Source of the DNA: Minisyncoccota bacterium
GTDB lineage: Bacteria > Patescibacteriota > Minisyncoccia > 2-02-FULL-40-12 > GWA2-44-9
Assembly: GCA_030583765.1 (NCBI GenBank)
Contig: CP129474.1
Coordinates: 331,921 to 395,920 of the forward strand
Length of the DNA: 64,000 nt
Reading direction: 5' to 3'
How positions within the stretch are numbered: position 1 is the first letter of the stretch; each line of letters starts with the position of its first letter. The position numbers were made by a program, and so were the translations under genes. Shown one piece after another: positions 1-60,739 of this stretch. The notes under the pieces were generated by a model. The model saw nothing but the letters and a program-made list of their open reading frames with translations, had not been told where the DNA came from and ran no database searches.

Positions 1-1569
1 GCCCTCTTCGGTGAGATCGTAGGTATCGTGCTCGAGAAGCGAGCTAATGATGAGGTTGCCGTCTTTGCCGCGAGTGGTCAGCCCGTGGCGGGCAAGCACG
101 AGGCGCGTTGGCTTTGTTGTGCGCAAACCGTCAAGATCTGCATATGAAGAAATAACGCGCATGTGCCGACACTCAGGCTTACCACACACCCACACCGGCA
201 ACGGCGTGCCCCAGTAGCGCTCACGCGAGAATGCCCAGTCTTTCCCTTCGCGGAGCCACTGTCCAAAACGACCATCTTTGATGTGCTCTGGATACCAGTT
301 GATCGTCTCATTATTTGCAAGAAGCTCTTTGTTAACCGCGGACATGCGGATGAACCACGATTCTTTTGCGTAGTACAACAACGGCTTGTGGCAACGCCAG
401 CAATGTGGGTACTCGTGCTCATACGGTTCAGTGCGCACCACGCGCCCCTGTGCCGCAAGCGTTTCGAGAATCAGCGCCTCGGTCTTTGGATCCTTCGCGT
501 AGCGGCCATCGAGTAGCTCACCCACACCGGTAAAGAACCCGGCCGCATCCACGGTGTGCACCTTTGGCAACCCCACGCGCGTGCCGAGCGCATAGTCATC
601 TTCTCCATACATCACCGCAGTGTGCACGATACCCGTACCATCTCCGGTTGTTACAAAGTCTGCGGCGTACACTTTATAGGAAGCATCAGATTGCAATGCG
701 GGGACAGAAAAGAGCGGCTCGTACGAGAGCCCGACAAGCTCTTTGCCAGAACACTCGCGCTCAATGACCGCGTCGGCACCATAGATTTTTTCTACGAGAT
801 CACGTGCAACAATGTGAAAGCCTTCTTCGCGTCGCACGAGCGCATAGGTAATATTCTCTCCCACTGCAAGCGCAACGTTCCCTGGAAGCGTCCACGGAGT
901 TGTTGTCCACGCAACGATTGCTGTTCCTTTTGGAAACGCAGATTCACCACGCAGAGGAAACAGCGCATACACGGAAGTGTCGGTCACCGTTTCATATCCC
1001 TGCGCAACTTCATGAGACGAGAGGCCCGTGCCACAGCGCGTGCAGAAAGGAATAACACGGTGCGCCTGGTACAAAAGCTGTTTATCCCAAATTTGCCCAA
1101 TGACATTCCAAAGAGACTCTACATAGTGAGCGCCGTAGGTGATGTAGGGATCGCGCATGTCGAGCCAGAAGCCCATGCGCTCAGTCATCTTCTCCCACAG
1201 ATCTCGATACTTCCACACGCTTGCCTTCGCCTTCGTATTAAATGCTGCGATACCGTATGCTTCAATGTCTTTCTTCCCCTTAAAGCCAAGTTCTTTTTCT
1301 ACTTCGAGCTCCACGGGGAGGCCGTGCGTATCCCATCCCGCCTTGCGGAGCACACGAAAACCGCGCATCGTTTTGTAGCGCCCATAGAGATCTTTAAAAA
1401 TGCGCGTGAGGAAGTGCCCAATATGCGGCAAACCGTTTGCCGTCGGTGGCCCCTCGAAGAACACGAATGGCTCTGCGCCTGCGCGACGATCGATGCTCTT
1501 TTGAAAAATGTGGTGATCTTTCCAAAAACGGCGGGTACGCTCTTCGCGGGTATGGAATGTCTCAGTCAT
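1..1569 (-). CDS. ileS: Isoleucine--tRNA ligase (type 2), C-terminal part outside window. Reverse-complement translation from ATG at 1569 gives MTETFHTREERTRRFWKDHHIFQKSIDRRAGAEPFVFFEGPPTANGLPHIGHFLTRIF...GWDTHGLPVE
   Basis: Own translation of the minus strand. Class I HIGH motif (PHIGH), WCISRQ-like and GWDTHGLP blocks typical of IleS type 2. The forward ORF 556..2052 in the track is antisense read-through. Confidence 0.8.
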   Translation of the reverse strand, partial: MTETFHTREERTRRFWKDHHIFQKSIDRRAGAEPFVFFEGPPTANGLPHIGHFLTRIFKDLYGRYKTMRGFRVLRKAGWDTHGLPVELEVEKELGFKGKKDIEAYGIAAFNTKAKASVWKYRDLWEKMTERMGFWLDMRDPYITYGAHYVESLWNVIGQIWDKQLLYQAHRVIPFCTRCGTGLSSHEVAQGYETVTDTSVYALFPLRGESAFPKGTAIVAWTTTPWTLPGNVALAVGENITYALVRREEGFHIVARDLVEKIYGADAVIERECSGKELVGLSYEPLFSVPALQSDASYKVYAADFVTTGDGTGIVHTAVMYGEDDYALGTRVGLPKVHTVDAAGFFTGVGELLDGRYAKDPKTEALILETLAAQGRVVRTEPYEHEYPHCWRCHKPLLYYAKESWFIRMSAVNKELLANNETINWYPEHIKDGRFGQWLREGKDWAFSRERYWGTPLPVWVCGKPECRHMRVISSYADLDGLRTTKPTRLVLARHGLTTRGKDGNLIISSLLEHDTYDLTEEG

Positions 1570-1659
1570 AAGAAATGTATTGTTACGCTAGCAAAAAAAG
1601 CGGAAAATCTCAACGCGAAAGCATTGCGCGAAAAGAGGAGTCTGTCGTACACTGCACGC

Positions 1660-8992: not shown

Positions 8993-9340
8993 GGGGATGA
9001 TCGGTTTCGACGAGGTCGTTCATTGATACATCGCTGTGCGCGGATGACTATCCCCCCGCGTAATAAATCTAGTCAACTCATATTTGGCAACTCTCAACCA
9101 GTTGTTGCATACGCCTAGCTTTAGCGCGTAAGCCATCCAGCTCGGATACTCGCTACGAGATTCCTGGGTGTCATCAGCGAGATGCTCGTTTGTGCGTCCG
9201 TCCGCACGAACGCTAAGACCTGACGGAAACCCATGCACGACGTTTGGCGAAGTCATACGTGCACGGATACCAAATCGCCTATCACAGTACACGCGGTATC
9301 AGTAACACTTTGGACTGGGGTTCGATTCCCCACATCTCCA
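8993..9340 (+). ncRNA. ssrA: tmRNA (SsrA), 348 nt
   Basis: 5' GGGGATGATCGGTTTCGACG matches the tmRNA 5' consensus (GGGGCTGATTCTGGATTCGACGGG). 3' end ...GGGGTTCGATTCCCCACATCTCCA has a T-arm plus 7-bp acceptor pairing with the 5' GGGGAUG, including the G3-U70 alanine identity pair. CCA is not encoded. Candidate tag frame ends ...PVVAYA* (stop TAG 9111-9113). Confidence 0.75.
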
Positions 9341-9346
9341 CTACAG

Positions 9347-15734: not shown

Positions 15735-15803
15735 ATTGAAACGGTTACGAGTATCGCATGAAAATTGAAGAAAATCAACGTGCGTGCTAGTTTGGTGGGA
15801 CAC

Positions 15804-16886
15804 ATGGCAACCATTCTGGCCATTGAGACCTCGTGCGACGAAACCGCTATTGCGGTTGTTCAAGGCGCTCCAGATCGCGTACGCGTGCTCTCTAATGTCA
15901 TCTCTTCGCAGATCCCCGTGCACGCAGAGTGGGGTGGTGTCGTACCGCACATCGCCTCTCGCGAGCATGCCGCAAACATTGAGCACGTGTTTCAGCAGGC
16001 AATCCGTGACGCAGGCGTTGCATTCCTCAAGACATTGATGCTATCGCAGTCACCCACGGTCCTGGCCTTGGGCCAGCACTCATCATCGGCCTCACGTTCG
16101 CAAAAACGCTCGCCGCAGAAACGGGGCTGCCACTCATCGGCGTAGACCACATGGATGGGCACATCCATTCCAATTGGCTCGACGCAGAACAACCCATGGA
16201 TGCTGTCTTTCCAGTGCTCAATCTCATTGTGTCCGGTGGGCACACGGAGCTTGTCGTCATGCGCGATCACGGTGACTATGAAGTGATCGGAGAAACGCAA
16301 GACGATGCCGTTGGCGAAGCATTTGATAAAGTGGCGCGCATGTTGGGACTTGGATACCCAGGAGGCCCCGCGATTTCAAAGCTGGCACAAGAGGGCAATC
16401 CACTTGCATTCCCCTTCCCTCAACCCATGCGCGATAGCAATTCGTTTCACTTCAGCTACTCGGGCCTTAAAACCGCGGTGCTCTACGCACTCCGCGACAT
16501 GGGAGACGCGTTGAAAGAATCTGCCCGCGCAGATGTTGCCGCATCGTTTCAAGAAGCAGCCATTGAAGTGCTCGTGCATAAAACTATTCGCGCAGCACAC
16601 GCAAACAGATGCGAAAACGGTTTTGCTCTCTGGCGGTGTTTCTGCAAACAAACTCCTCCGCGAGCGCCTCGCACAGCGCCTTGCCGAAGAAGGCATCGCC
16701 CACGTACAGCCGCTCATGAAATACACCACTGACAACGCCGCGATGATCGGAGCCGCAGGCTATTTCCGATTCCGTGCAGGCGCCATTGGGCCATGGCACA
16801 CGGTCACCATGCGCCCCAACCTCACGCTTGGCGAAACAACAAGAGATACGCTACAATCAACAGCACATGCCTCGCGAACTTCCTAA
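15804..16886 (+). pseudogene. tsaD: tRNA N6-threonylcarbamoyladenosine synthase TsaD (Kae1/YgjD), split over three frames by two frameshifts
   Basis: Frame 1 [13 protein letters not shown]...[16 protein letters not shown]. Frame 2 [13 protein letters not shown]...SGGHTELV...GEAFDKVARMLGLGYPGGP. Frame 3 LLSGGVSANKLLRERL...TDNAAMIGAAGYF. Shift 1 at about 16029-16031 fits a missing A in ctcaa(a)gac (LKDIDA restored). Shift 2 at about 16592-16608. Confidence 0.75.
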
Positions 16887-19039
16887 GCAATACGACCACA
16901 CAGGAACGGAGTCGGATATCTATGCACTCTGGGAAAAGAGTGGCTTTTTTAACCTGACAACTCCTCCGAACGCCACAAAGAACCATTCTCCATTGTTCTT
17001 CCCCCACCAAACGTAACGGGCGTGCTCCACATTGGACACGCATATGAGGACGCACTCCAGGACGCCATTATTCGCTACCAGCGCATGCGCGGCAAGCGCG
17101 CGCTGTGGGTGCCTGGCACCGATTCTGCGGCCATGGCAACGCAGCCAAAAGTAGAGAAGATCATCCAAAAGGAGGAGGGAAAGAACCGCCATGAGATCGG
17201 CCGCGAAGAGCTTCGTGCGTCGCGTTGCCGCATTTGCAAAGGCAAGCGAAAACACCATTCTCTCGCAGGTAAGAAAAATGGGGGCATCACTCGACTGGTC
17301 CCGCTATGCCTACACCATGGATGATGCGCGCAATACGGCGGTAGCAACCGCCTTTCAGCGCATGTATGAAGCAGGCCTCATCTACCGCGGGAATCGTATT
17401 GTGAACTGGATCCCAAGGGCCAAACGGTTATCTCAGACGATGAAGTAGTGCACGAAGAACGTGACGCGAAGCTCTACACGTTCACCTACTCAAAAGACGT
17501 TCCCCATTCCTATCGCCACCACGCGACTTGAAACAAAAGTGGGAGACACCTGCGGTTGCCGTGCACCCTGACGATCGCGCTACCAACAATACATCGGCAA
17601 AGAATACGATGCTGTCTTTTATGACGTCCCCATTCACATAAAGGTGGTCGCGGATAAGGGCGTGGACATGACTTTTGGCACTGGCGCGCTTGGCGTCACC
17701 CCAGCGCACAGCATGGCCGACTGGGACATCGCCGATAAAAATGACCTCCCGCGCCCACAGGTTATTAATGAATACGCAAAGATGAGCGTTGAGGGTGCGC
17801 TCAAAGACAAGAAAACAACGGAGGCGCGCGAGCTTATCGCAACGTGGCTTGCGGAGCAGGGCCTTTTGCAAAAAGTAGAAGACATAAAACAAAATGTATC
17901 GATTGCCCGAGCGCACGGGCGGCATTATTGAGCCACTTCCCAAATTGCAGTGGTTTATTGATGTCGACAAGCCATTCACCATCCCCCATTCACAGATCAC
18001 CGGCATCTCCAGCGGCTCAGAAACAACTCTGAAAGAGATTATGCGCGTTGCCGTCACCAGTGGCGACGTACACATGCCTCAAGAGAACTTCCGCAAGGCA
18101 TACATGCACTGGATTGATAATCTGCACGACTGGTGCATTAGCAGACAGATTTGGTTTGGGCACCGTATTCCTATTTGGTATCGCGGCGAAGAAATCTTTT
18201 GCGGCGTGAGCGCACCCAGTGGCGACGGATGGGAACAAGATCCCGATGTGCTCGACACGTGGTTCTCCTCGGCGTTGTGGACGTTCTCTACGCTTGGGTG
18301 GCCGAACGCGTCGCAAGACCTGAAGACTTTCCATCCCACCTCTCTCATGTCTCCTGCGTATGAGATCCTCTTCTTATGGGTTTCTCGCATGATCCTCATG
18401 AGCGGATTTCACCTCGGTCAAGCTCCTTTTCAATCCGTGCTCATCCATGGCCTTGTGCGCGATTCAAAGGGAAGAAAGTTTAGTAAGTCCCTTGATAATG
18501 GCGTCGACCCGCTCGATATTATCGGGAAATATGGCGCAGATGCACTGCGCATGGGCCTGTTGGTAGGAACGGCTATTGGTAATGATTTGAAATTTGATGA
18601 AAGTAAAGTAAAAGGCTATCGCAACTTTGCAAACAAACTCTGGAACATCGCCCGCTTTGTACTCATGAATGCGCCAGACCAAACAATAGCTGAAGCACCC
18701 AGTCTTACCAGTGAGGACGCGCAGGCGCTTGCCGAACTCGCCACCCTTACGAAAGACATCACCAAAGATATGGAAGAGCTGCGCCTCTATCTCGCAGCTG
18801 AAAAGACGTATCACTACATCTGGCACACCTTTGCGGACATTCTTGTAGAGCGCGCGAAGCCACACCTCACCGGAACCGACCCGACAGCAAAAGCATCCGC
18901 GCAGTGGCTCATGCAAGAAGTGCTCGCAACGTCTCTCATACTACTCCACCCATTCATGCCGTTTGTGACAGAGGCAATTTGGCATGAAGTATTCCCAAAC
19001 AAAGGGCTTCTCATGATTGAGCCGTGGCCTTTGTCCTAG
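16858..19039 (+). pseudogene. valS: Valine--tRNA ligase, 5' half broken by at least 7 frameshifts, 3' 381 codons intact
   Basis: Segments in three frames match ValS: [114 protein letters not shown], then intact WCISRQIWFGHRIP...KMSKS-region (GRKFSKSLDN). Shifts at about 16975, 17210, 17408, 17495, 17548, 17575 and 17905, several in short homopolymers. Confidence 0.75.
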
Positions 19040-20357: not shown

Positions 20358-20729
20358 CTAACGGAGCGAGCCTCGAGAGATGAGGCTTGCCAACGTGTTC
20401 AAGATAAGACCAATTGCCAAGATAACCGCTGCGCCCTTGATACCGTTCCAGATCTGCTCTTTTGCAGCACCGGCACCCTTGTCATCAGCGGACATGATCC
20501 ATTTAATGCCACCGATACCGATGTAGATAACGGCCAAAATCAAACCAATCGTGAGAATGAAGTTCGCGATCTGCTTCAAGAGGTCCTCAAGTTTGGTAAG
20601 GTCCAGAGTCGTTGTTGACTGAACTGGAGGGGTGGGGATGTTGATCTCTGCAGCGAGTACCAAGGCAGGAGAGAAGACAGCAAGTGCCAAGAGTGCTCCA
20701 GCTAGAATTTTTATATTACGTTTATTCAT
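20358..20729 (-). CDS. Pilin-like paralog 1: secreted two-helix hairpin protein (VirB2/TrbC-like topology)
   Basis: Start ATG 20729 (MNKRNIKILAGALLALAVFSPALVLA, signal peptide) preceded by AAGGGGGTGG. Mature part has two hydrophobic helices separated by the loop SADDKGAGAAKEQ. Confidence 0.6.
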   Translation of the reverse strand: MNKRNIKILAGALLALAVFSPALVLAAEINIPTPPVQSTTTLDLTKLEDLLKQIANFILTIGLILAVIYIGIGGIKWIMSADDKGAGAAKEQIWNGIKGAAVILAIGLILNTLASLISRGSLR

Positions 20730-20761
20730 ACGCCACCCCCTTTCTAAGAAATCGTACGGAC

Positions 20762-21214
20762 CTATCGCACGCACGAGCCACTACTTGAGCAATAATAACC
20801 CGCGGGGCACTGCGAACTACTAGTACAAGGGCCGACAAACCCGCCCGAATTGAAGCTCTGTGACTGGATGATCTCGTCAATCGTTTTTACCACAATGCCA
20901 AAGCCGAGAATAATCGCGATACCAATAAGCGCAGCTTTTATTGTACTTTTTGCCCCTTCAACGGCCTTAGTATCGGTCGCCGAAGTAATCCAGAGAATTG
21001 CTCCATAAGCAATGTAGCCAATACCGATCACAAGGCCTATGCCGAGTAGGAAGTTCACTACTTGCACAATAAGCTCTCGGATTTTATCAAGGGTAAGCGG
21101 AGTTCCTGTCACCGTAATCCCCTGTGGAGCCACGGCAGCAACGAAACTTGGAAGAATAATGAACGACAGAGCGAGTGTGACAATAAGTCCAGTAGTAAAT
21201 TTCCGTAGTGTCAT
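20762..21214 (-). CDS. Pilin-like paralog 2 with Cys-rich C-terminal tail
   Basis: Signal peptide (MTLRKFTTGLIVTLALSFIILPSFVAA). Same two-helix core as paralog 1 (VNFLLGIGLVIGIGYIAYG ... ALIGIAIILGFGIVV). Tail GPCTSSSQCPAGYYCSSSGSCVR. The track start at 21235 is a TTG. Confidence 0.6.
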   Translation of the reverse strand: MTLRKFTTGLIVTLALSFIILPSFVAAVAPQGITVTGTPLTLDKIRELIVQVVNFLLGIGLVIGIGYIAYGAILWITSATDTKAVEGAKSTIKAALIGIAIILGFGIVVKTIDEIIQSQSFNSGGFVGPCTSSSQCPAGYYCSSSGSCVR

Positions 21215-21224
21215 AGTGTGTATA

Positions 21225-21566
21225 TTATAAACCAACGCATGAAGGAAGTGAAGGCGTAGGCGCGCCGATAAACGCCGCGACGGTTAAAATAATCGTCCCC
21301 GCCCCCAAGATAACCGCCAGAGCAGTAAAGGCCCATATGAGTCCAGCTTTTGCCGAGCTAAACGGCCCAGGAGAACCCTGGCTCATAATCATCTTAATGC
21401 CGTACCATGCGATTCCTCCAATGACAAGAATGATGCTGACGCGGAGAAAAAAGCACATGAGCCCCGTGGCGATGATAATCACTCGCTCGTAGCCAAGATC
21501 CATTCCCGGAGTTTCTTGTATCCCCTCGGTAAGCGCTCCCGCCGCCATGTAGATAGGGTTGCTCAT
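21225..21566 (-). CDS. Pilin-like paralog 3 (no cleavable signal; two TM helices)
   Basis: ATG 21566 overlaps the TGA stop of paralog 4 (gaATGAgc), indicating translational coupling. Two long hydrophobic helices with a Pro/Gly-rich loop. Confidence 0.5.
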   Translation of the reverse strand: MSNPIYMAAGALTEGIQETPGMDLGYERVIIIATGLMCFFLRVSIILVIGGIAWYGIKMIMSQGSPGPFSSAKAGLIWAFTALAVILGAGTIILTVAAFIGAPTPSLPSCVGL

Positions 21567-22033
21567 TCTAAGATAACGCACGTACCATCACGGCACACCG
21601 CCCCTCCTGTGCACGGTGGATTACAGGCTGGGATTGGCGTTGGAGACGTGCCACTACCCCCAATATTCAACACACTCTCCACTAAATCTACGAACCCCCT
21701 GCCAATAAAGATGATAGCGAGACCGATCACTACTGACCAAATAATGTTATTCGCCTCTCCGATGGCTTTTGGATTTGATCCCGCGGTAAGGTATTTAATC
21801 CCCGCCCAGATGATCATAATAACCGCGATAGGAATAGCGATGGCGGTGATAAAGCGCAGTGCGGCGTTGATGAGATCAATAACGTTACCTGATGCAAGCG
21901 GATTTCTAAGACACAGAGAGCCCTCTGGACATGGGTCCGCGGCAAACGCAGAGCTAGAGCTAAACAGGAGAACGCCAACAAGAAGAGTCATAAGCAGTAC
22001 TCGCATCATATTAGTTATTATATCACGCCTCAT
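21563..22033 (-). CDS. Pilin-like paralog 4 with Cys-rich N- and C-terminal segments
   Basis: Signal peptide MMRVLLMTLLVGVLLFSSSSAFA. Motif AALRFITAIAIPIAV shared with the fusion protein. Tail ACNPPCTGGAVCRDGTCVILE. Confidence 0.6.
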   Translation of the reverse strand: MRRDIITNMMRVLLMTLLVGVLLFSSSSAFAADPCPEGSLCLRNPLASGNVIDLINAALRFITAIAIPIAVIMIIWAGIKYLTAGSNPKAIGEANNIIWSVVIGLAIIFIGRGFVDLVESVLNIGGSGTSPTPIPACNPPCTGGAVCRDGTCVILE

Positions 22034-22038
22034 TTAAG

Positions 22039-22989
22039 CTAATTTAATTGCCAGTGAATATGATTCGTTTGCGAAACCGCGCAGTCTGCGACAACCGCAC
22101 CGCCCGCCGCTTCACAAATAACGTATCCCCCACGCAATGCGAGAAAATCACGGGCCGCTCGCCATTTTGCTGAGTCGCCGCTCGGGATAGTAATGTCAAC
22201 CGCAGTGCCGCGATAATGCTGACTATTGGCGCTATGGCTTCCAGTCGTAAGCGACGATACGACAAATTGGTGCCCATTCTGAGAAAGGGCTATAAGACCG
22301 TCAAGGATGCGTTGGTCAACGGTAACCGTACCCGACGCGCCACCTGGAGTGCATCCAGCAGCGCATCGGTTACTACACACCGACGGAAGTTGTCCCGCTG
22401 CCAGCGAATCTATATTCCCCCGCGCATGATTTGGAGCACCACAATCGGCACTTGTAGAGAATGTAACGCCACCCTGCGTAAGAAGACGTTGAGCTGCGGC
22501 CTGCACCGACGAAGATGGCGGCACCGAAACGGTATTCGTCGGAGCTGGAGGAAGATTTATATTCTCATCGGGCGTACAGGTAATCGGTTCATACCATTTT
22601 ACATTCGCGCCGAAATAGTTACTCGCCACAAATTTTAAGAATGTATTCACCACCATCCATGCAAGCATAATCACCACAAGCCCAATAATTGCATTTGAAA
22701 AAAGCGTATTGCTCTGTGAGACGCTCTTTGTGTTTGTTGCTCCCGCAACCCGGATAAAACCGGCAATGATAAAAAGAATAGTGGCTACCAGGGGCGCCGC
22801 AACAAACATCACGAATCGAAGAGCAGAATCTGCTGCCTCAACGAGATGGCACGTCTGACACATCGCATTCACCCCTGTGTCAGTCGACTTCCCACAAGGG
22901 ACCACAGCAGCCTCTACGGGAAGAGCAAAGACTCCACTGAACATGACTGCGAGTACCGCCCCCGACATGATGCGAGTGAGTGTGCTCAT
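22039..22989 (-). CDS. Fusion protein: N-terminal pilin-like two-helix domain plus C-terminal peptidase M15 (LAS/VanY-like) peptidoglycan hydrolase domain
   Basis: N-terminus (signal, CxxxC, SALRFVMFVAAPLVA, second TM) is paralogous to the small proteins. C-terminal about 180 aa carry the Zn-ligand pattern of LAS/M15 peptidases: SHSANSQHYRGTAVDI (H-x6-D) and NHIHWQ (HxH). ATG overlaps the stop of the upstream SBP gene (ATGA). Confidence 0.6.
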   Translation of the reverse strand: MSTLTRIMSGAVLAVMFSGVFALPVEAAVVPCGKSTDTGVNAMCQTCHLVEAADSALRFVMFVAAPLVATILFIIAGFIRVAGATNTKSVSQSNTLFSNAIIGLVVIMLAWMVVNTFLKFVASNYFGANVKWYEPITCTPDENINLPPAPTNTVSVPPSSSVQAAAQRLLTQGGVTFSTSADCGAPNHARGNIDSLAAGQLPSVCSNRCAAGCTPGGASGTVTVDQRILDGLIALSQNGHQFVVSSLTTGSHSANSQHYRGTAVDITIPSGDSAKWRAARDFLALRGGYVICEAAGGAVVADCAVSQTNHIHWQLN

Positions 22990-29649: not shown

Positions 29650-31464
29650 ATGATGAAGCTTATTCGTTCAATTGCCCTCACATTCCTCGTCTTTTTGGCG
29701 CTCTCCGGACTCGCCTCTTTTTTCCTTGGGGGGCCAGAGCCTGAGCGCATTTCGCTCACTGAGTTGGCTCAGAAAATAAATGCAAAGGAGGTAAAAGAGG
29801 TGGTCATCGAATACGACCGGCTCGCTATTACCCTTGCCGATGATTCGCGCGCCGTCTCACAAAAAGAGCTCAACACTCCCCTTACCGAAACCCTTGTTGC
29901 GCTCGGTGCAAAACCAGAGCTTCTAAGCGGTATCTCGGTGCGAGTCCAGGATCCTAGCGGCGTAGGAACATGGCTTGGTGCAATTCTCCCCAGCCTGATC
30001 CCCATTCTCATTACCGTTGGCATTTTGTGGTATTTCTTCCGCCAAGCACAGCGTGGCTCTCTACAAACCAATAGCTTTACTAAAACAAAAGCGAAGCTCG
30101 CCGTAGGATCCCAAAACGGCAAAGCGATCACCTTCAAAGATGTTGCGGGGCTCATTGAAGCAAAAGAAGAGGTCAGCGAAGTGGTTGAGTTCCTCAAGGA
30201 GCCAGAGCGATTCCATAAATTAGGTGCGCGCATTCCTCGAGGAGTGCTCCTTGTGGGCACGCCGGGAACTGGTAAAACACTCCTCGCAAAAGCCGTTGCG
30301 AACGAGGCGGGCGTCCCCTTCTATTATGTCTCTGGCTCTGACTTCGTAGAGCTCTTTGTGGGCGTGGGCGCAAATCGCGTGCGCGACACCTTTGAAATCG
30401 CGAAAAAGACCGCCCCTTCTATTATCTTCATCGATGAAGTTGATGCTGTCGGTCGCCAGCGCGGCGCGGGACTTGGCGGCGGACACGATGAGCGCGAACA
30501 GACGCTCAACCAGATTCTTGTAGAGATGGATGGCTTTGAGGGCAAAGACGCGGTTGTGGTGATGGCAGCGACAAACCGCCCTGACATTCTTGACCCGGCC
30601 CTTCTCCGCCCAGGTCGCTTTGACCGTCGCGTCATCTTGGATGAACCCTCGCTCAATGATCGTGAAGCGATTCTCAAAATCCATTCGGAAGACAAGCCGC
30701 TCGCACAAGATGTCGATCTCCGCCTTGTCGCTGAGCGCACGCCTGGATTCTCGGGCGCAGACCTCGCTAATCTCATTAATGAAGCGGCTATTCTCGCCGC
30801 GCGATCACGACGCACCGAAATCCTTCAAATTGACGTCCTGCAGGCAATTGAAAAGGTTATGCTTGGCCCCGAACGCCGCTCCCACGCACTTTCGGTGCGC
30901 GAAAAAGAGATCACCGCATACCACGAAGCAGGCCACGCTCTTGTTGCATACTCACTCCCCCACACAGATCCCGTGCATAAAGTGTCTATTGTTTCGCGTG
31001 GACGGGCAGGCGGCTACACATTGAAACTCCCCTCTGAGGATAAGCACATGAAAACACGAGCAGAATTTGAATCAGAGCTCGCAGTGCTCATGGGTGGATA
31101 TACGGCAGAGCAAATAATTTTTGGCGACATCACCACGGGGGCCTCAAACGACCTTCGTGTTGCATCAAACATCGCGCGCCACATGGTAACGCAGTACGGC
31201 ATGTCCACGAAGATTGGCCCCGTCTCTTACCCAGAGCCAAGTGGTGAGATATTCTTAGGGAGAGATTTGGCGACGGGGCGCGAATATTCAGAAACGATCG
31301 CTGCACAGATTGATGACGAGGTGCGAACACTCCTCCTGCACGCGCAAAAAACAGCAAAGGAAACAATTACCAAGCACCGTGAGCAGTTGGAAAAAATTGC
31401 AAAGACGTTGATAGAAAAAGAAACGATAGAACAGCAGGAGTTCTACGCCCTCATGAAGGGCTAA
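29650..31464 (+). CDS. ftsH: ATP-dependent zinc metalloprotease FtsH
   Basis: N-terminal TMs, AAA+ Walker [12 protein letters not shown], and the zinc motif HEAGHAL. Confidence 0.9.
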
Positions 31465-31537
31465 CGGCCCGTAGCTCAGTTGGTAGAGCAGGCGTCTTAT
31501 ACACGCCGGGTCCCTGGTTCGAGTCCAGGCGGGCCGA
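31465..31537 (+). tRNA. tRNA-Ile with anticodon TAT (UAU, reads AUA). First pair C1-G72
   Basis: Hand-folded: acceptor CGGCCCG/CGGGCCG, D-arm GCTCAGTTGGTAGAGC, anticodon stem GGCGT/ACGCC, loop CTTATAC, T-arm CCTGGTTCGAGTCCAGG. Confidence 0.65.
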
Positions 31538-31585
31538 CTATATACTCAATACAATGCCCACTGCTGGGCGTTGTATAGAAAAGAA

Positions 31586-31620
31586 GACGCCCCTCGTGCA
31601 AAGCACGTGGGGCGTTTTTG
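31586..31620 (+). terminator. Intrinsic terminator after tRNA-Ile
   Basis: gacgcccc...ggggcgt followed by ttttt. Confidence 0.55.
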
Positions 31621-31635
31621 TCGTCGCCCGGTCCA

Positions 31636-33625: not shown

Positions 33626-33699
33626 GGGCGCTTAGCTCAGTTGGTTAGAGCGACTCGTTTACACCGAGTAGGCCGGGGGTTCGAATCCCTCAGCGCCCA
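33626..33699 (+). tRNA. tRNA-Val (anticodon TAC)
   Basis: Acceptor GGGCGCT/AGCGCCC, anticodon stem ACTCG/CGAGT, loop TTTACAC, T-arm GGGGGTTCGAATCCCTC. Confidence 0.85.
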
Positions 33700-33871: not shown

Positions 33872-34564
33872 ATGACACCTCCGACTGTTCTTTTAGAAAC
33901 GCCCGATCTCCTCTTTATAGACAAGCCGTCTGGGCTTACCGTCCATAAAAAGACGGCGGAAGATCCCCAACACACTCTTGCGGATTGGGTTGTCGAACGC
34001 TATCCCGATATTCGAAATGTTGGCGAAGACCCACTTCGCCCAGGTATCGTCCACCGCCTCGATAAAGAAACGTCCGGCGTGATGGTTGTCGCAAAAACAA
34101 ACGCGGCATTCTTTTCATTAAAAAAACAGTTTCAAGACCACATTATTGAGAAAGAATATTGGGCCCTGGTACATGGGACTCCTCGCCCACCTCAGGGCAC
34201 CATAGATGCTCCCATTGGAGCCCTTGGAAACAAGCGCACTACACGCATCCATGGCAAGCGAACCCTTGTGGCCCACGAAGCCATCACTGATTATAGAACC
34301 CTCAAAACCTTTGATCGGTTTTCACTCATCGCCGCCCACCCTCGCACGGGGCGCACGCACCAAATTCGAGTGCACTGCAAGCACATGGGGACGCCAATCG
34401 CAGGAGACCTGCTCTATACCACATCTGCCCCAATCCCCCAGGGCCTCTCTCGCCTTTTTCTCCACGCCCACTCCCTTTCCGTTGCCGCCCCAGACAGTTC
34501 TCGTGTAAGCGTTCAGGCCCCCCTCCCAGGGGATTTACAAAACGTTCTTGATGCGTTACACTAG
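33872..34564 (+). CDS. RluA-family pseudouridine synthase
   Basis: HRLDKETSGVMVVAK catalytic Asp motif. Also FIDKPSGLTVH. Confidence 0.85.
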   Translation: MTPPTVLLETPDLLFIDKPSGLTVHKKTAEDPQHTLADWVVERYPDIRNVGEDPLRPGIVHRLDKETSGVMVVAKTNAAFFSLKKQFQDHIIEKEYWALVHGTPRPPQGTIDAPIGALGNKRTTRIHGKRTLVAHEAITDYRTLKTFDRFSLIAAHPRTGRTHQIRVHCKHMGTPIAGDLLYTTSAPIPQGLSRLFLHAHSLSVAAPDSSRVSVQAPLPGDLQNVLDALH

Positions 34565-51813: not shown

Positions 51814-52905
51814 CTAAGTTCTCAGTGGCATAATAATATACTGCGTCCCGCCCTGTTCTTGGGTCGGTTTTAGAATAATGGGGCTTGTGGGGCTTGTGAA
51901 TTCCAATACAAGCGCATCGGTATCAATAACTTTTATCCCATCAAGTACGTACCGAAAGTTTGCAGAAATTAAAAACCCATCCCCCTGTATTGTAGCTGGT
52001 ATCTTCGTCTCCACCTCTCCCCTCTCTGTGTTCTTTGCTTGAATAATACATTCGTCTTTTTCAGCGCGAATAAGAATGTCTGAAATACGAGAAGAAAACA
52101 GTCCTCCTAAGCGAATTGATTGCTCAAAGTCTCCTTTTTGCACCAACAATTTACTCTGTGGACGATCTGGTATAACCCGCGCATAGTCTGGGTATACTCC
52201 ATCAATAACACGCGTCACACATACGCACGAATCGTGAACAAATGCGACTTGATGCTCATGTATATAAATTGCCACATCACCCTCAAGATCTCCGGCGATA
52301 CGAGAAACTTCTAATATAGCTGACCGAGGAATAATGACGCTCGTTTCTCGGTTTGTCTGCGCCGGAATTCTCTTTTCTACAAGACGGAAGCTATCCGTTG
52401 CGGCAACAATACACTCTTTCCCTGTAAATCTCATATATGCGCCGGAAAGTTCTGGGCGCGCATCAGAAAGAGCCATGGTATCGTGGGTGACTTGAAGTAG
52501 TTTTTGTAAATCTCCAGAATGCAAGACAGACACTTTTCCTTCAGTAATATTTGGAATGATAGGAAAATCTTTTGCATCAACGCCGAGGAGCGTTGTTCGA
52601 GCGCTCTTTCCCTTTATAATAATCTTTTGATCTTTTACAGAAAGCTCTAAAACGTCGTCGTGGATACTGTGAAGAAACTCATGAATGACTTTCCCCGACA
52701 CTGCTACACTCCCCTCTTCATCGACTCGCGCACCAAGGGTTGCGGTAATGCCCACCTCAAGATTTGTGCCAACACATTCAATCTTTCCCGGACGAGCTCG
52801 AATGAGGACATATGAGAGAATAGGAAGCGCCCCTGCCTTAGCGGTTGTTCTCTCAACATAGGAGAGAGCTCTTAAAAAGTGGTCTCTGGAAAAGTGTGCT
52901 TTCAT
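51814..52905 (-). CDS. dnaN: DNA polymerase III beta sliding clamp
   Basis: Three-domain beta clamp (MKAHFSRDHFLRALSYVERTT...). Start taken at MKAHF. Confidence 0.85.
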   Translation of the reverse strand: MKAHFSRDHFLRALSYVERTTAKAGALPILSYVLIRARPGKIECVGTNLEVGITATLGARVDEEGSVAVSGKVIHEFLHSIHDDVLELSVKDQKIIIKGKSARTTLLGVDAKDFPIIPNITEGKVSVLHSGDLQKLLQVTHDTMALSDARPELSGAYMRFTGKECIVAATDSFRLVEKRIPAQTNRETSVIIPRSAILEVSRIAGDLEGDVAIYIHEHQVAFVHDSCVCVTRVIDGVYPDYARVIPDRPQSKLLVQKGDFEQSIRLGGLFSSRISDILIRAEKDECIIQAKNTERGEVETKIPATIQGDGFLISANFRYVLDGIKVIDTDALVLEFTSPTSPIILKPTQEQGGTQYIIMPLRT

Positions 52906-53162
52906 AGCGTAGTAGTTACTATAGTATATATACAAACTATTATCATTATTATAGGAGAGGTTGTCCGTGTATAATTCTGTGAATAACACCCTACCCCTCT
53001 CATATTTCCTTGATTATTTTTCATACGACTCGTGTTGATAGAATGTGTAAATGTCGGTGGTAGTGTGGGGAATGTGCGGGGCGAGTCATGGATATCTTTT
53101 GTATTCTACTCAGATACACTGAAGTAATCACTCCGCTAAACACAGGGATATCAACAAGATAC

Positions 53163-54545
53163 TCACGACTTTAAAAGTGAATCGTTATAGACACGTTCTC
53201 GAATAAGGGTGAGTTCTTGTTTTACAGACTCGTCTTCTGATTCCTCCTTCTTTATTTTCTCGCAAGCATGAATAACAGTTGAATGGTCTCTTCCGCCGAG
53301 CTTCGCTCCAATTTCCGGGAACGAAAGCTTCACCTCTTCGCGGAGAAGGAACATAGCAATCTGTCGTGGTTTTACAACCTCTTTCTTTCTACTCCGCTTC
53401 AAGAGGTCGTTTTGAGAGATGCTGTAAAAATCAGCGACGGATTTTAAGATCGACTGAGGCGACGTTTTTCTATAAGGAACGCTGAGATATGCCGTGAGAA
53501 TGTTTTTTACCTCTTTTACGTCTGGGAGCTTGTTATATATTTGAGCGAACGCAAGAACTCTATTAAGAGCCCCCTCAAGCTCGCGAACATTTTTTTGAAT
53601 ATGTGTGGCGATGTAGACAAGAACCTCATCATCTGCTGCGTAACCCTTTTCTGTGCACTTGGAGCGTAAAATCGCGAGACGTGTTTCAAAATCGGGCATT
53701 CCAATATCAGCCATCATGCCCCCTTCGAAACGTGAGCTCAGGCGCTCTTCAAGGGTCGGGATTGCTTTAGGAAGACGGTCTGACGTGAGAATTACCTGCT
53801 TATTTCTTACGTGAAGCTCATTGAATATAGAGAATACAATTTCCTGTGTTTTGTCTTTTCCAGCTATAAACTGAATATCGTCGATAATGAGCAAATCGAG
53901 GCGGGCATACGTATTTTTTATATCCTCTATCGTTCTTAGGCGAATACTTTCTAGAATAGTTGCGGTGAGTTTTTCCGCGGAAATATATAAGACGCGTCGC
54001 TGGGGATTTTCTGTAAGAAGTTTGTTTCCCACCGACTGCACGAGGTGTGTTTTTCCAAGCCCAACACCGCCGTATAAGAACAGGGGGTTATAAAGTTTGC
54101 CAGGATTTTTTGCTACTGCCTGGGCGGCCGCGAATGCAAGCTCATTATTGGACCCGACAATAAAGGACTCAAAGGAATACTTTCTATTGAGATGGGTTGT
54201 TTTGTCGATATCCGAGCTAATTTGGGCGCTATTTTCCTCAATCTCCTTCTCTAAAATAATCTTAGAAATATCTTGCTTTGTAATATCTTGCTTTGGCTGC
54301 CCGATAATGTAGCGAACGTCACGAACTTCCGGGGCATGCTTTCGAATAAGTTGAATAATTTGCTTATGAAACTTGTTTTCAAGCCACTCGCGCACAAAGC
54401 CATTTGGAACGCTTACAAAAACACCATTCTGATCACGCGAAACTATTAGGGTGTTTTTAAACCAAGTTGTAAAGTGTGCGCGAGAAAGAGACAACTCCAT
54501 TTCAGCGAGGACGGCTTTCCAAAGTTGCTCGTTCGTCATTTGCAT
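53163..54545 (-). CDS. dnaA: Chromosomal replication initiator DnaA
   Basis: AAA+ Walker A NPLFLYGGVGLGKTHL, Walker B LLIIDDIQF, and the C-terminal DNA-binding HTH (GGRDHSTVIHACEKI). Confidence 0.9.
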   Translation of the reverse strand: MQMTNEQLWKAVLAEMELSLSRAHFTTWFKNTLIVSRDQNGVFVSVPNGFVREWLENKFHKQIIQLIRKHAPEVRDVRYIIGQPKQDITKQDISKIILEKEIEENSAQISSDIDKTTHLNRKYSFESFIVGSNNELAFAAAQAVAKNPGKLYNPLFLYGGVGLGKTHLVQSVGNKLLTENPQRRVLYISAEKLTATILESIRLRTIEDIKNTYARLDLLIIDDIQFIAGKDKTQEIVFSIFNELHVRNKQVILTSDRLPKAIPTLEERLSSRFEGGMMADIGMPDFETRLAILRSKCTEKGYAADDEVLVYIATHIQKNVRELEGALNRVLAFAQIYNKLPDVKEVKNILTAYLSVPYRKTSPQSILKSVADFYSISQNDLLKRSRKKEVVKPRQIAMFLLREEVKLSFPEIGAKLGGRDHSTVIHACEKIKKEESEDESVKQELTLIRERVYNDSLLKS

Positions 54546-54593
54546 GGAGATGGGCTCAAACCAGACCGTGCTCAACCCTACCGCGCCCTCCAA

Positions 54594-54727
54594 AAATCAC
54601 AACACGATACAAAGTTGATAACTTGTTTATAACAGGTGGAGAATCGCTGTAAATATTGACGGACGATTTTATCCGTTGTTTTGTCCCGTTTGACCCAATA
54701 TCAGCAGCTGTGATATTCTATGAACAC
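54594..54727. promoter_or_regulatory. Candidate oriC / dnaA promoter region with degenerate DnaA boxes
   Basis: rpmH-dnaA divergent intergenic region. TGTTTATAA, TTATCCGTT and TTGATAAC (7/9 matches to TTATCCACA). AT-rich. Confidence 0.4.
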
Positions 54728-54865
54728 ATGAAATCAACATTGTTTCGTCCTAAAAAGACAAAACGGAAGCGTAAACACGGCTTTCTTTCTCGTATGCAAA
54801 GCGCCTCGGGGCGCAAAGTTCTTGCGCGCCGCCGAGCAAAGGGTCGCTCGCGCCTCTCGGTTTAA
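54728..54865 (+). CDS. rpmH: 50S ribosomal protein L34
   Basis: [45 protein letters not shown] matches the L34 consensus. Confidence 0.85.
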
Positions 54866-54866
54866 T

Positions 54867-55178
54867 ATGCCCCGGCGAATAACTCGCTTTGGCTCTGAGC
54901 GCGCGGTGCGCCTTTTTCTTCGCTCAAATCCAAGCGTGAGAAGGGGTTCGGTGCAGTGCTGGTATGCACACGATAATCAGGGGCGGCTCGCTATTGTTAT
55001 CCCAGCCAAAGTGGCTCCCCGAGCAGTAGATCGCACAAAACTTCGGCGCGTCATTAGAGAGATAGTCCAAAGTATTGCAAAGCCGCCACTTCAAGACTCG
55101 TCGCTCTGTGTTCGGGTGATTGGTGACTCCGAGAGTGTTGCAAGTGACCTTCGAGAACTGTTCGTCAAGTCGCTATGA
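54867..55178 (+). CDS. rnpA: RNase P protein component
   Basis: Basic small protein directly after rpmH with an RNR-like motif region. Confidence 0.7.
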   Translation: MPRRITRFGSERAVRLFLRSNPSVRRGSVQCWYAHDNQGRLAIVIPAKVAPRAVDRTKLRRVIREIVQSIAKPPLQDSSLCVRVIGDSESVASDLRELFVKSL

Positions 55179-55396
55179 GGCACGTTGTACTATTTTTTAT
55201 CCGAGCCTATCAAGCCATCTCCCCCGTCCTTTGGTCTGCGCGGATTGTTCCCGTTGTCAGTGGGTGCCGATTCTCTCCGTCGTGCAGCGAGCGCCTTGCT
55301 CAAGAGATTCATTCACATGGAATTACTCGCGGAATAGCGGCAGCACTACCTCAGCTTTCCTCTTGTCATCCTTGGCATAACACAAAAACATCCTGA
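55175..55396 (+). CDS. yidD: Membrane protein insertion efficiency factor YidD
   Basis: CRFSPSCSE motif. Position between rnpA and yidC. Confidence 0.75.
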   Translation: MRHVVLFFIRAYQAISPVLWSARIVPVVSGCRFSPSCSERLAQEIHSHGITRGIAAALPQLSSCHPWHNTKTS

Positions 55397-56076
55397 TGTT
55401 CGAAACCCTTCTTCATAAACCAGTAGTTAACATCCTTATTGGGATTACTGGTAGCGTCTCAGGCGGCTCTCTCGGCGCAGCAATCATTATTCTGACGGTT
55501 GTTGTAAGGCTTTTTCTTGCGCCCCTCTCAATAAAAACACTACGATCACAGCAAAAGCTTCAAGAGCTCTCAGATAAAACAAAGGCATTGCGTGACAAGC
55601 ACGCAAATGATCCAGCCGCGCAAAACGCGGCAATTCTTCAGCTGTATAAAGATCACAACGTCAATCCACTTTCAGGATGCCTTCCGCTGCTTATACAATT
55701 CCCACTCATTATCGCTCTTTATAAAGGATTTCTTTCCGTGCTGAGCGGTACGTATGCCTCTCTGCTATATGCGTTCACTCCTCAGCCAGAGCAGCTTGTT
55801 ACCACGTTTGTTGGCATAGTGCTTACGGCGCCGAACCATTTACTCGCCATTATCGCAGGGGTTGCGCAATTTGCGCAGCTTTGGGTTAGCGCGCGCTATC
55901 AAGCCCCCTCCGCGACCCCCAACCCACTGCAATCAAAGCAGTTTCTCATTCTTTTCCCCGCGCTCGTTGTTGTTATCGGTTGGAATTTGCCCGCCGGGCT
56001 CTCGCTCTACTGGGCTATTTCAACCCTTCTCTCTATTGGAGAGCAGCACTACGCTCGAGTTACTGCAGGCCGCTAA
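55396..56076 (+). CDS. yidC: Membrane protein insertase YidC (short form)
   Basis: Five-TM core with the conserved LYKDHNVNPLSGCLPLLIQFPLIIALY region. Confidence 0.8.
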   Translation: MFETLLHKPVVNILIGITGSVSGGSLGAAIIILTVVVRLFLAPLSIKTLRSQQKLQELSDKTKALRDKHANDPAAQNAAILQLYKDHNVNPLSGCLPLLIQFPLIIALYKGFLSVLSGTYASLLYAFTPQPEQLVTTFVGIVLTAPNHLLAIIAGVAQFAQLWVSARYQAPSATPNPLQSKQFLILFPALVVVIGWNLPAGLSLYWAISTLLSIGEQHYARVTAGR

Positions 56077-60055: not shown

Positions 60056-60330
60056 TATTTGTATAGATACTTTTTAGGATTAAGCCCATACGAGAGCGCG
60101 TATGCAACATAGTTAATGAGCGGCATGTCCTCTATTTTTAAGAACGCGAACGCGAGAGAGGTAAATGCCGCAAGCGCCGCTACGGCAATAAAGGCGATTC
60201 CGTTAAGGAGCGCAAAGGCGATGAAAACTATAGAGCCCCCCATGGCGACCCACAAAAATTGGCGAAGCGTAAATGGCCCCACGAGGCGTGGCTCCGTCTC
60301 AATAAATTGTGGGACTTGGAATCGGGCCAT
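60055..60330 (-). CDS. PrgI/VirB3-like small T4SS membrane protein
   Basis: MARFQVPQFIETEPRLVGPFTLRQFLW then two TM helices. Located immediately upstream of virB4, as in Gram-positive and CPR T4SS loci. Confidence 0.55.
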   Translation of the reverse strand: MARFQVPQFIETEPRLVGPFTLRQFLWVAMGGSIVFIAFALLNGIAFIAVAALAAFTSLAFAFLKIEDMPLINYVAYALSYGLNPKKYLYK

Positions 60331-60336
60331 AATGTA

Positions 60337-60738: not shown

Positions 60739-60739
60739 G

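What the first reader, a model, noticed from the sequence alone, without database searches (positions are those of the whole stretch)
31465..31537. tRNA-Ile with a genomically encoded UAU anticodon (AUA decoder)
The anticodon loop folds as CTTATAC (anticodon TAT). Most bacteria decode AUA with tRNA-Ile(CAU) modified to lysidine by TilS. A UAU-anticodon tRNA-Ile is an alternative solution known from a minority of bacteria and from archaea and eukaryotes. Its presence would predict absence of tilS in this genome.
Basis: partly seen in the sequence, partly recalled or inferred. Interest (0 to 1): 0.5.

Follow-up and report, generated by a model that had tools for sequence, protein, structure and literature searches.

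The report
Genomic tRNA-Ile(UAU) in a Patescibacteria genome
This is a real, working isoleucine tRNA whose gene carries the anticodon UAU and reads the AUA codon directly; the solution is known but counted as rare in bacteria, and here it is conserved right after the ftsH gene across a whole group of ultra-small groundwater bacteria.

Summary
ARAGORN and Rfam both call a 73-nt tRNA at 31465-31537(+) with anticodon TAT at 31498-31500. It folds as a perfect cloverleaf with A37 and A73.

The organism is a Patescibacteria (CPR) bacterium of the Paceibacteria/Yanofskybacteria type. Its closest relatives come from Hainich groundwater.

The gene starts at the base after the ftsH stop codon. All nine distinct relatives examined have a tRNA-Ile(UAU) downstream of ftsH. 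So do 26 of 120 metagenomic UAU-tRNA loci, 20 of them on the same strand.

In 31 distinct ftsH-linked copies, 99.4% of stem cells pair and 16 of 21 pairs show compensatory changes, while the anticodon stays fixed. AUA is used at 5.5 per 1000 codons in confident genes. It aligns to Ile in homologues, as AUU and AUC do, and not to Met.

The window also holds the N-terminal half of a type-2 (eukaryote/archaea-like) IleRS. Bifidobacterium and Neorickettsia, which lack tilS, also carry a eukaryotic-type IleRS.

No tilS and no CAU tRNA were found in the window or in 0.37 Mb of non-redundant related loci. The whole genome could not be searched, so tilS loss is inferred, not shown.

Verdict: a new member of a known kind, of moderate interest.

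The parts
31465..31537 (+). tRNA-Ile(UAU) gene, positions 1-73, with C1-G72 and A73; no CCA is encoded
   Evidence: ARAGORN; Rfam tRNA at 67.2 bits; cloverleaf minimum-free-energy fold; flanking sequence; covariation in 31 homologues
31498..31500 (+). anticodon T-A-T (U34 A35 U36) within the loop CTTATAC at 31496-31502
   Evidence: read; ARAGORN places the anticodon at position 34; invariant in all homologues. In the 31-sequence set this is partly by design of the search pattern, but the loci found through FtsH were retrieved independently of it
29650..31464 (+). ftsH (AAA plus M41 protease); its TAA stop codon (31462-31464) directly abuts base 1 of the tRNA, so this is the probable co-transcription unit
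   Evidence: Pfam; 100% and 94% homologues; ftsH followed by tRNA-Ile(UAU) in all relatives; no promoter-like site on the + strand between 31000 and the tRNA
31592..31622 (+). terminator-like hairpin plus T-run, 55 nt after the tRNA
   Evidence: consensus scan only
1..1569 (-). N-terminal 523 aa of isoleucyl-tRNA synthetase, type 2 (IleRS2), cut by the window edge; the presumed charging enzyme. Its last ~40 aa enter an inserted His_Phos_1 domain
   Evidence: tblastn with E. coli IleRS; PDB matches to IleRS2 at 494-514 bits against IleRS1 at 212-248 bits; TIGR00392, MupA and MupB; homologues
15765..16886 (+). tsaD (t6A37 synthesis; A37 of this tRNA is the expected substrate), interrupted by two frameshifts in this sequence
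   Evidence: NCBIfam TIGR03723 hits on two ORF pieces; three-frame reading
33626..33699 (+). tRNA-Val(UAC), the conserved downstream neighbour in the cluster ftsH, tRNA-Ile(UAU), tRNA-Val(UAC), RluA-family gene, rplS
33872..34564 (+). RluA-family pseudouridine synthase (closest to RluD), a conserved neighbour; no link to the tRNA has been shown
   Evidence: Pfam; NCBIfam TIGR00005 at 193 bits; synteny

Best explanation
This is a functional, chromosomally encoded minor isoleucine tRNA (tRNA-Ile2) of a Patescibacteria (Paceibacteria-type) bacterium. Its gene encodes the anticodon UAU.

It is most likely transcribed with ftsH, cut out by RNase P and a 3' nuclease, and given CCA post-transcriptionally. 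It is then charged with isoleucine by the organism's type-2 IleRS and used to read AUA codons by U34-A pairing.

It most likely arose from a lysidine-type tRNA-Ile2(CAU) by a C34-to-T change. In this lineage it probably replaces the TilS/lysidine system.

Shown here: the gene, its fold, its conservation and covariation, its synteny, the reading of AUA as Ile, and the presence of an IleRS2.

Inferred: co-transcription, charging by IleRS2, the state of U34 (unmodified, or modified so as to avoid AUG), and loss of tilS. I put tilS loss at about 0.7.
For: The gene and fold are supported.

The organism is identified by FtsH homologues named Yanofskybacteria, Paceibacterota and Patescibacteria; the closest relatives (94%) come from Hainich groundwater assemblies.

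Synteny: a tRNA-Ile(UAU) lies downstream of ftsH in L007, L008-L013, L014/15, L016/17, L018, L019, L143 and L144. Of 120 metagenome UAU-tRNA loci, 26 have ftsH within about 1 kb (one at 1.7 kb), 20 of them on the same strand.

Selection: in 31 distinct copies 99.4% of stem cells pair, 16 of 21 pairs have changes on both sides, and the covariation score is 0.757 against 0.18 in shuffles and about 0.09 for slid controls. A73 is invariant although it was not part of the search pattern.

Decoding: AUA occurs at 5.5 per 1000 codons in 26 confident genes, and in 42 of 48 ORFs of at least 150 aa. Forty AUA sites align to I 55%, L 21%, V 8% and M 4%. AUU sites give I 56% and AUC sites I 52%, whereas AUG sites give M 38%.

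[quoted passage not shown] Taniguchi 2013 (PMC3575796) reports that the tilS-less Bifidobacterium and Neorickettsia also have the eukaryotic-type IleRS.

Origin: the closest E. coli tRNA gene is ileX, a tRNA-Ile2(CAU), at 82% identity.

No PP-loop SGGxDS ORF, no tblastn hit to E. coli TilS and no CAU tRNA were found in the window or in the CPR-type loci.
Against: The rest of the genome was not available. The absence of tilS and of tRNA-Ile2(CAU) is therefore untested beyond 64 kb plus about 0.37 Mb of related loci.

IleRS2 is not diagnostic: the IleRS2 preprint 10.64898/2026.02.03.703510 points out that many bacteria use IleRS2, so the type does not tell against lysidine.

The IleRS C-terminal domain, which reads position 34, lies outside the window.

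No RNA-level data exist for expression, charging or the state of U34.

tsaD, needed for t6A37, is frameshifted in this sequence, probably through local sequence error.

Invariance of the D arm, anticodon loop and T loop in the 31-sequence set is partly imposed by the search pattern.
Confidence: 0.85

Rival explanations
1. Redundant decoder. The genome also keeps tilS and a tRNA-Ile2(CAU), and AUA is read by both LAU and UAU tRNAs, as proposed for Lactobacillus casei, Cyanothece and Ferrimonas.
For: Taniguchi 2013 (PMC3575796) documents bacteria with both systems. Only 64 kb of this genome was seen. IleRS2 is compatible with lysidine tRNAs.
Against: No tilS-like ORF and no CAU tRNA were found in the window or in about 0.37 Mb of related CPR loci. 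The UAU gene is kept with a fixed anticodon across relatives whose FtsH is only 48-68% identical, which indicates that it is the working decoder. Keeping two systems is unlikely in strongly reduced genomes; this last point is inference.
Confidence: 0.22
2. Foreign or decaying gene. On this reading the tRNA is a phage- or mobile-element-derived copy, or a pseudo-tRNA, and is not part of the host's decoding set.
For: Many of the 120 metagenomic UAU-tRNA hits sit in multi-tRNA arrays typical of phages. BLAST against phage genomes gives only 77-82% matches, to tRNA genes labelled Met, Lys or Ile.
Against: The gene sits in a conserved housekeeping block: gyrA, the S1 protein gene, ftsH, tRNA-Ile, tRNA-Val, an RluA-family gene and rplS. 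That block is shared by all relatives. All 21 stem pairs are intact and show covariation. GC content in this part of the window is 0.54, within the window's range of 0.46-0.56. No phage hit is close.
Confidence: 0.02
3. Different identity. On this reading the tRNA is charged with another amino acid, for example Lys (its acceptor stem and D arm resemble those of the window's tRNA-Lys(CUU)) or Met, so that AUA would be recoded.
For: The window's tRNA-Lys(CUU) shares the D arm and a nearly identical acceptor stem, including the unusual C1-G72 pair. UAU is one base away from UUU.
Against: AUA sites align to Ile, Leu and Val exactly as AUU and AUC sites do, not to Met or Lys. A35, U36, A37 and A73 are all present, and C4-G69 occurs in 26 of 31 copies. 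The closest E. coli gene is tRNA-Ile2. In relatives with C1 in tRNA-Lys, the tRNA-Ile has G1, so the two do not co-vary.
Confidence: 0.02

Closest known systems
Mycoplasma mobile tRNA-Ile2(UAU) (Taniguchi et al. 2013, PMC3575796)
   Same: It is a bacterial, genomically encoded UAU anticodon with A37 and A73 that serves as a dedicated AUA decoder. Its body resembles lysidine-type tRNA-Ile2, which fits the C34-to-T origin proposed in that paper.
   Different: M. mobile uses a bacterial type-1 IleRS in which Arg865 replaces the conserved Trp in the zinc-binding domain. The organism here has a type-2 IleRS. Unmodified U34 and discrimination against AUG by the ribosome are shown for M. mobile and unknown here. 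The lineage also differs: Patescibacteria rather than Mollicutes.
Bifidobacterium and Neorickettsia species that lack tilS and carry a tRNA-Ile TAT gene plus a eukaryotic-type IleRS (Taniguchi et al. 2013, discussion and Table S1)
   Same: The combination is the same: a tRNA-Ile(UAU) gene with a type-2 (eukaryote/archaea-like) IleRS. This is the closest match in how the system probably works.
   Different: The phylum is unrelated. Loss of tilS is documented there and only inferred here. The IleRS here carries an inserted histidine-phosphatase domain, a feature the papers read here do not mention for those species.
Canonical bacterial TilS/lysidine system (tRNA-Ile2 CAU to LAU)
   Same: It does the same job of reading AUA as Ile. 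The tRNA body is related, with 82% identity to E. coli ileX.
   Different: The gene here has T, not C, at position 34, so TilS has no substrate in this tRNA. No tilS was found in the sequence available.
Eukaryotic cytoplasmic tRNA-Ile(UAU), and phage-encoded tRNA-Ile(UAU) genes
   Same: The anticodon is the same. Eukaryotes also pair it with a type-2 IleRS.
   Different: The eukaryotic tRNA has an intron and pseudouridines at positions 34 and 36 (my own knowledge, not tested here). The phage copies found here sit in multi-tRNA arrays, whereas this gene lies in a conserved chromosomal housekeeping block.

Membership tests
Bacterial tRNA-Ile2 with genomically encoded UAU anticodon (AUA decoder) | Canonical tRNA cloverleaf with anticodon 5'-UAU-3' at positions 34-36, plus U33 and A37 | tested here: met
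   ARAGORN, Rfam and the fold; loop CTTATAC read
Bacterial tRNA-Ile2 with genomically encoded UAU anticodon (AUA decoder) | Isoleucine identity, so that AUA is read as Ile | tested here: met
   The test is indirect. Forty AUA sites align to I 55%, L 21%, V 8% and M 4%, like AUU and AUC sites and unlike AUG sites (FtsH alone). A73 is invariant and C4-G69 is present in 26 of 31 copies. No aminoacylation data exist.
Bacterial tRNA-Ile2 with genomically encoded UAU anticodon (AUA decoder) | The gene is under purifying selection as a tRNA, not a pseudogene | tested here: met
   99.4% of stem cells pair, 16 of 21 pairs show compensatory changes, and no shuffle of 500 reaches the observed covariation score
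Bacterial tRNA-Ile2 with genomically encoded UAU anticodon (AUA decoder) | An IleRS able to accept U34 (Arg/Lys variant of IleRS1, or a type-2 IleRS) | tested here: inconclusive
   The IleRS in the window is type 2 by its catalytic half. [quoted passage not shown] The anticodon-reading C-terminus of this organism's enzyme lies outside the window, and its specificity has not been measured.
Bacterial tRNA-Ile2 with genomically encoded UAU anticodon (AUA decoder) | Absence of tilS and of tRNA-Ile2(CAU) from the genome (the 'life without TilS' subgroup) | tested here: inconclusive
   None was found in the window or in 35 non-redundant related loci totalling 0.37 Mb.
Bacterial tRNA-Ile2 with genomically encoded UAU anticodon (AUA decoder) | U34 is unmodified, or specially modified, so that AUG is not misread | not testable with these tools
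   This needs tRNA mass spectrometry and ribosome-binding assays
TilS/lysidine system | A tRNA-Ile2 gene with C34 (CAT anticodon) as the TilS substrate | tested here: not met
   Position 34 is T. There are no CAT tRNAs among the window's 10 tRNAs.
Phage-encoded tRNA-Ile(UAU) | Located in a phage genome or tRNA array, without conserved host synteny | tested here: not met
   The chromosomal block from gyrA to rplS is conserved. The best phage matches are 77-82% identical and are labelled tRNA-Met, -Lys or -Ile.
Type-2 isoleucyl-tRNA synthetase (IleRS2) | The catalytic (HUP) domain is closer to IleRS2 than to IleRS1 | tested here: met
   Matches to 8c8u (514 bits) and 1ile (494 bits), against 1ffy (248), 8c9e (227) and 8wnf (212); MupA and MupB at about 489 and 486 bits

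The most novel reading that the evidence does not exclude
An entire major class of Patescibacteria (Paceibacteria and perhaps beyond) may have abandoned TilS/lysidine and read AUA with an encoded tRNA-Ile(UAU). That tRNA is kept in a fixed unit with ftsH and is charged by an unusual IleRS2 that carries an inserted histidine-phosphatase domain. If so, what the literature still calls 'rare cases' (bioRxiv 10.64898/2026.02.03.703510) would be the rule for a sizeable share of bacterial diversity. These cells would then need their own way of keeping U34 from reading AUG: a ribosomal adaptation or an unknown U34 modification, possibly made by the neighbouring RluA-family synthase.
Probability: 0.45. 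Interest if true: 0.55.

Novelty: new member of a known kind. Interest (0 to 1): 0.38.

Why it matters
Telling AUA (Ile) from AUG (Met) is a classic decoding problem. Bacteria are taught to solve it with lysidine, and UAU tRNAs are treated as scattered exceptions: nine species in 2013 and nineteen in tRNADB-CE.

Here the exception is conserved, with covariation and fixed synteny, across many Paceibacteria-type genomes. This points to a large natural group in which life without TilS could be studied.

Three questions follow. How is U34 kept from misreading AUG? How does IleRS2 accept U34? Is tilS, an antibiotic-target candidate, dispensable there?

For this single window, however, the finding is an ordinary, correctly read gene of a known kind.

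Tried and rejected
1. Looking up the exact FtsH product found nothing because the start codon I chose differed. L19 gave only Logan contigs under 2 kb.

2. The single genome-contig scan used a pattern fixed on this tRNA's D loop and T loop. It returned one distant MAG (L007). The pattern was too narrow, because relatives have other D loops, so it says nothing about how common the gene is. The source species is not among the scanned representative genomes.

3. Four literature searches for CPR, Patescibacteria, Parcubacteria or Saccharibacteria together with lysidine, TilS or tRNA-Ile found no paper that makes the link. The library is open-access only, so this is not proof that the link is unpublished.

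4. It traced to ORF 21516-22037(+), a wrong-strand shadow of a pilin-type gene. Once that ORF was removed, the excess disappeared.

5. I considered that the tRNA was recruited from tRNA-Lys, because the two share an acceptor stem, a D arm and C1-G72. I rejected the idea: C1 does not co-vary between the two tRNAs across genomes, the closest E. coli gene is tRNA-Ile2, and AUA sites are not Lys.

6. I found no way to search a named relative's whole genome for tilS with the tools on hand. One protein search was left unused because it could not be aimed at this clade.

Full report
**Observation.** ARAGORN finds eleven RNA genes in the window, among them tRNA-Ile with anticodon (tat) at 31465-31538(+). 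Rfam's tRNA model matches 31465-31537 at 67.2 bits (gathering score 29, E = 1.8e-12, full model length), in the same range as the other nine tRNAs of the window. The 74-nt stretch folds on its own into the textbook cloverleaf: -33.9 kcal/mol, z = -2.95, and none of 200 shuffles fold as well. Read, the anticodon loop is CTTATAC at 31496-31502, with T-A-T at 31498-31500, U33, A37 and discriminator A73.

The acceptor stem starts with C1-G72. CCA is not encoded, which is true of nine of the ten tRNAs here.

**Organism and context.** The gene starts at the base after the TAA stop codon of ftsH (29650-31464; Pfam AAA plus Peptidase_M41). Upstream lie a four-domain S1 protein gene, a metallo-beta-lactamase-fold gene and gyrA. 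Downstream lie tRNA-Val(UAC), an RluA-family pseudouridine synthase gene and rplS.

A search with FtsH returns a 100% match from a Logan assembly and two 94% matches from Hainich groundwater assemblies and NCBI MAGs. It then returns hundreds of hits at 64-70% identity. Their source names are Candidatus Yanofskybacteria, Paceibacterota, Taylorbacteria, Colwellbacteria and 'Patescibacteria group'. The window therefore comes from a CPR/Patescibacteria bacterium of the Paceibacteria type.

It returned a single distant MAG (L007). That MAG also has ftsH (there with a LAGLIDADG intein), then a small ORF, then tRNA-Ile(UAU).

**Conservation.** I fetched the ftsH neighbourhood of eight further relatives. 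Each has a tRNA-Ile(UAU) 0-180 nt after ftsH, usually followed by tRNA-Val(UAC):

- L008-L013, where the tRNA is identical to the window's
- L014/L015
- L016/L017 (Yanofskybacteria RIFCSPHIGHO2)
- L018 (Colwellbacteria)
- L019 (a 733-kb scaffold)
- L143
- L144 (Taylorbacteria)

Of those 120 loci, 26 contain ftsH, within about 1 kb in all but one (1.7 kb), and 20 have the tRNA downstream on the same strand; FtsH there is 48-68% identical to the window's. Many of the remaining hits are multi-tRNA arrays of the phage kind.

I aligned thirty-one distinct ftsH-linked copies (A2) and scored them on the cloverleaf. 99.4% of cells form standard pairs, against 69.5% in shuffles and 26-43% when the partners are slid. 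Sixteen of 21 pairs have changes on both sides. The covariation score is 0.757, against 0.18 for shuffles and about 0.09 for slid controls.

The D stem, anticodon loop and T loop were fixed by the search pattern, so their invariance is not evidence. The acceptor, anticodon and T stems and A73 were free. This is a tRNA under long-term purifying selection with its anticodon held at UAU.

**Decoding.** AUA is in regular use: 10 per 1000 codons over all ORFs of at least 150 aa, in 42 of 48 of them. In the 26 genes that have detectable homologues it is 5.5 per 1000, or 8.5% of Ile codons.

To see what AUA means, I tabulated the residues that homologues of less than 85% identity carry at the window's AUN codons. 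A first pass showed excess Met at AUA sites. The excess came entirely from ORF 21516-22037(+), a wrong-strand shadow of a pilin-type gene. Without that ORF the profiles are as follows:

| Codon | Residues in homologues |
|---|---|
| AUA (40 sites) | I 55%, L 21%, V 8%, M 4% |
| AUU | I 56% |
| AUC | I 52% |
| AUG | M 38%, L 21% |

The AUA profile is indistinguishable from AUU and AUC and quite unlike AUG. In FtsH alone, against 117 homologues, the five AUA sites give I 48%, L 30%, V 18% and M about 0. AUA is read as isoleucine.

**The charging enzyme.** A tblastn with E. coli IleRS, taken from MG1655, hit the minus strand at the left edge of the window. Window 1-1569(-) encodes the first 523 residues of an IleRS that runs off the window. 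ORF 556-2052(+) is its shadow.

Against solved structures the fragment scores 514 bits with Priestia megaterium IleRS2 (8c8u) and 494 bits with Thermus thermophilus IleRS (1ile). Against type-1 enzymes it scores only 212-248 bits (1ffy, 8c9e, 8wnf). NCBIfam gives ileS at 533 bits and the IleRS2-type MupA and MupB at about 489 and 486 bits.

[quoted passage not shown] Taniguchi et al. (PMC3575796) showed that type-1 E. coli IleRS rejects UAU through Trp905 and that M. mobile escaped this with Arg865. They also noted that the tilS-less Bifidobacterium and Neorickettsia have the eukaryotic-type IleRS. The system here resembles that second route.

This is permissive rather than decisive. Many bacteria have IleRS2, so it is not a marker of tilS loss (bioRxiv 10.64898/2026.02.03.703510), and the domain that reads base 34 lies outside the window.

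**Origin.** The best match in every one of 5,426 E. coli genomes is a gene annotated tRNA-Ile. In the copy I inspected, next to mug, it carries a CAT anticodon, i.e. ileX, the lysidine-type tRNA-Ile2, at 82% identity. This fits the C34-to-T route proposed by Taniguchi et al.

The window's tRNA-Lys(CUU) shares the D arm, a near-identical acceptor stem and the unusual C1-G72 pair. Among the CPR-locus tRNAs, C1 occurs only in Ile(UAU) (13 of 32), Lys(CUU) (3 of 4), Pro and one Ser. However, C1 does not co-vary between Ile and Lys across genomes. I therefore reject recruitment from tRNA-Lys.

**The tilS prediction.** There is no SGGxDS PP-loop motif in any frame of the window or of 133 fetched loci. 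There is no tblastn hit to E. coli TilS. There is no CAU tRNA in the window or in the CPR-type loci.

That covers 64 kb plus about 0.37 Mb of non-redundant related sequence, not a genome. Taniguchi et al. also list bacteria that keep both systems. So tilS loss is plausible, at about 0.7, given the deep conservation of the UAU gene in strongly reduced genomes. It remains unproven.

**Transcription (inferred).** No sigma-70-like site lies on the + strand between 31000 and the tRNA. A hairpin plus T-run follows at 31592-31622. Together with the zero-nucleotide spacer, this suggests that ftsH and the tRNA share a transcript. RNase P would then cut exactly after the stop codon. The zero spacer is specific to this genus; other relatives have 11-180 nt.

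**Comparison and verdict.** This is a genuine tRNA-Ile(UAU) that decodes AUA. It works like the known bacterial UAU systems, and most like the Bifidobacterium/Neorickettsia combination with IleRS2. It is a new member of a known kind.

What goes beyond the textbook is the scale: the gene is the norm, with fixed synteny, across Paceibacteria-type genomes. Meanwhile the literature I could search still speaks of rare cases and contains no paper linking CPR with lysidine or TilS.

Interest is moderate (0.38). The clade-wide replacement reading, if confirmed by a simple genome survey, would be a useful though not revolutionary result.

Noticed in passing
window 1-1569 (-); L145 6001-9428; proteins P0121-P0240: The IleRS of this organism and of about 60 of its 120 best homologues (Yanofsky-, Lipton-, Jorgensen-, Azam- and Nomurabacteria names) has a histidine-phosphatase domain (Pfam PF00300). 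It is inserted in the catalytic domain after the 'WVC..C' zinc knuckle. The window's fragment ends just inside it (LVLARHG). In the complete genome CP064973.1 the gene is also split into two ORFs of 780 and 358 aa, 8 nt apart and in different frames. The papers read here do not describe this insertion.
   Followed up: partly
window 15765-19039 (+): Two adjacent essential genes are broken by frameshifts: tsaD (two shifts) and valS (at least three shifts, in pieces at 16774-17016, 17022-17324, 17191-17448, 17644-17931 and 17894-19039). The rest of the window reads cleanly. This could be local sequence error or real decay; it is unresolved.
   Followed up: partly
window 31462-31465: The ftsH stop codon TAA is directly followed by base 1 of the tRNA. 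RNase P cleavage would therefore leave an ftsH mRNA that ends exactly at its stop codon. This is seen only in this genus (window and L008-L013); other relatives have 11-180 nt spacers.
   Followed up: partly
window 31465 and 39439; alignment A2: An unusual C1-G72 first base pair occurs in tRNA-Ile(UAU) (13 of 32 CPR copies) and tRNA-Lys(CUU) (3 of 4). Nearly all other tRNAs in these loci start with G. The acceptor stem of L007's tRNA-Ile is identical to that of the window's tRNA-Lys.
   Followed up: partly
window 556-2052 (+) and 21516-22037 (+): These are long ORFs with no family hits and many ATA codons (11 and 14). They are wrong-strand shadows of ileS and of a pilin/TrbC-type gene, and they inflate naive AUA counts and distort codon-site statistics.
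   Followed up: yes
window, all tRNA genes: Nine of ten tRNA genes lack an encoded CCA end; only tRNA-Phe has it. The organism therefore depends on a CCA-adding enzyme.
   Followed up: no
window 8993-9343 (+): A tmRNA gene with the tag peptide GNSQPVVAYA (ARAGORN; Rfam 106 bits).
   Followed up: no
L007 1405-4770: The ftsH of the distant MAG WY4.bin98 carries an intein with a LAGLIDADG homing-endonuclease domain inside the AAA module (1121 aa).
   Followed up: no
window 51814-54593 (-) and 52000-56000: dnaN and dnaA lie side by side next to the lowest-GC stretch of the window (0.456), where the cumulative GC skew reaches its minimum. This is probably the replication origin region.
   Followed up: no
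window 20358-22989 and 56060-63915 (-): There is a cluster of T4SS-pilin/TrbC-like small genes. A second block holds a TraG/VirB4-type ATPase (57672-59462) and large proteins with no family hit (784 aa at 60740-63094), in lower-GC DNA rich in ATA codons. This may be a conjugation-like or type IV apparatus, as seen in relatives.
   Followed up: no
loci L024, L025, L034, L077, L084, L097, L098, L134 and others: Many metagenomic tRNA-Ile(UAU) genes sit in arrays of 5-25 tRNA genes typical of large phages. Phage genomes are thus a second common home of UAU isoleucine tRNAs.
   Followed up: no
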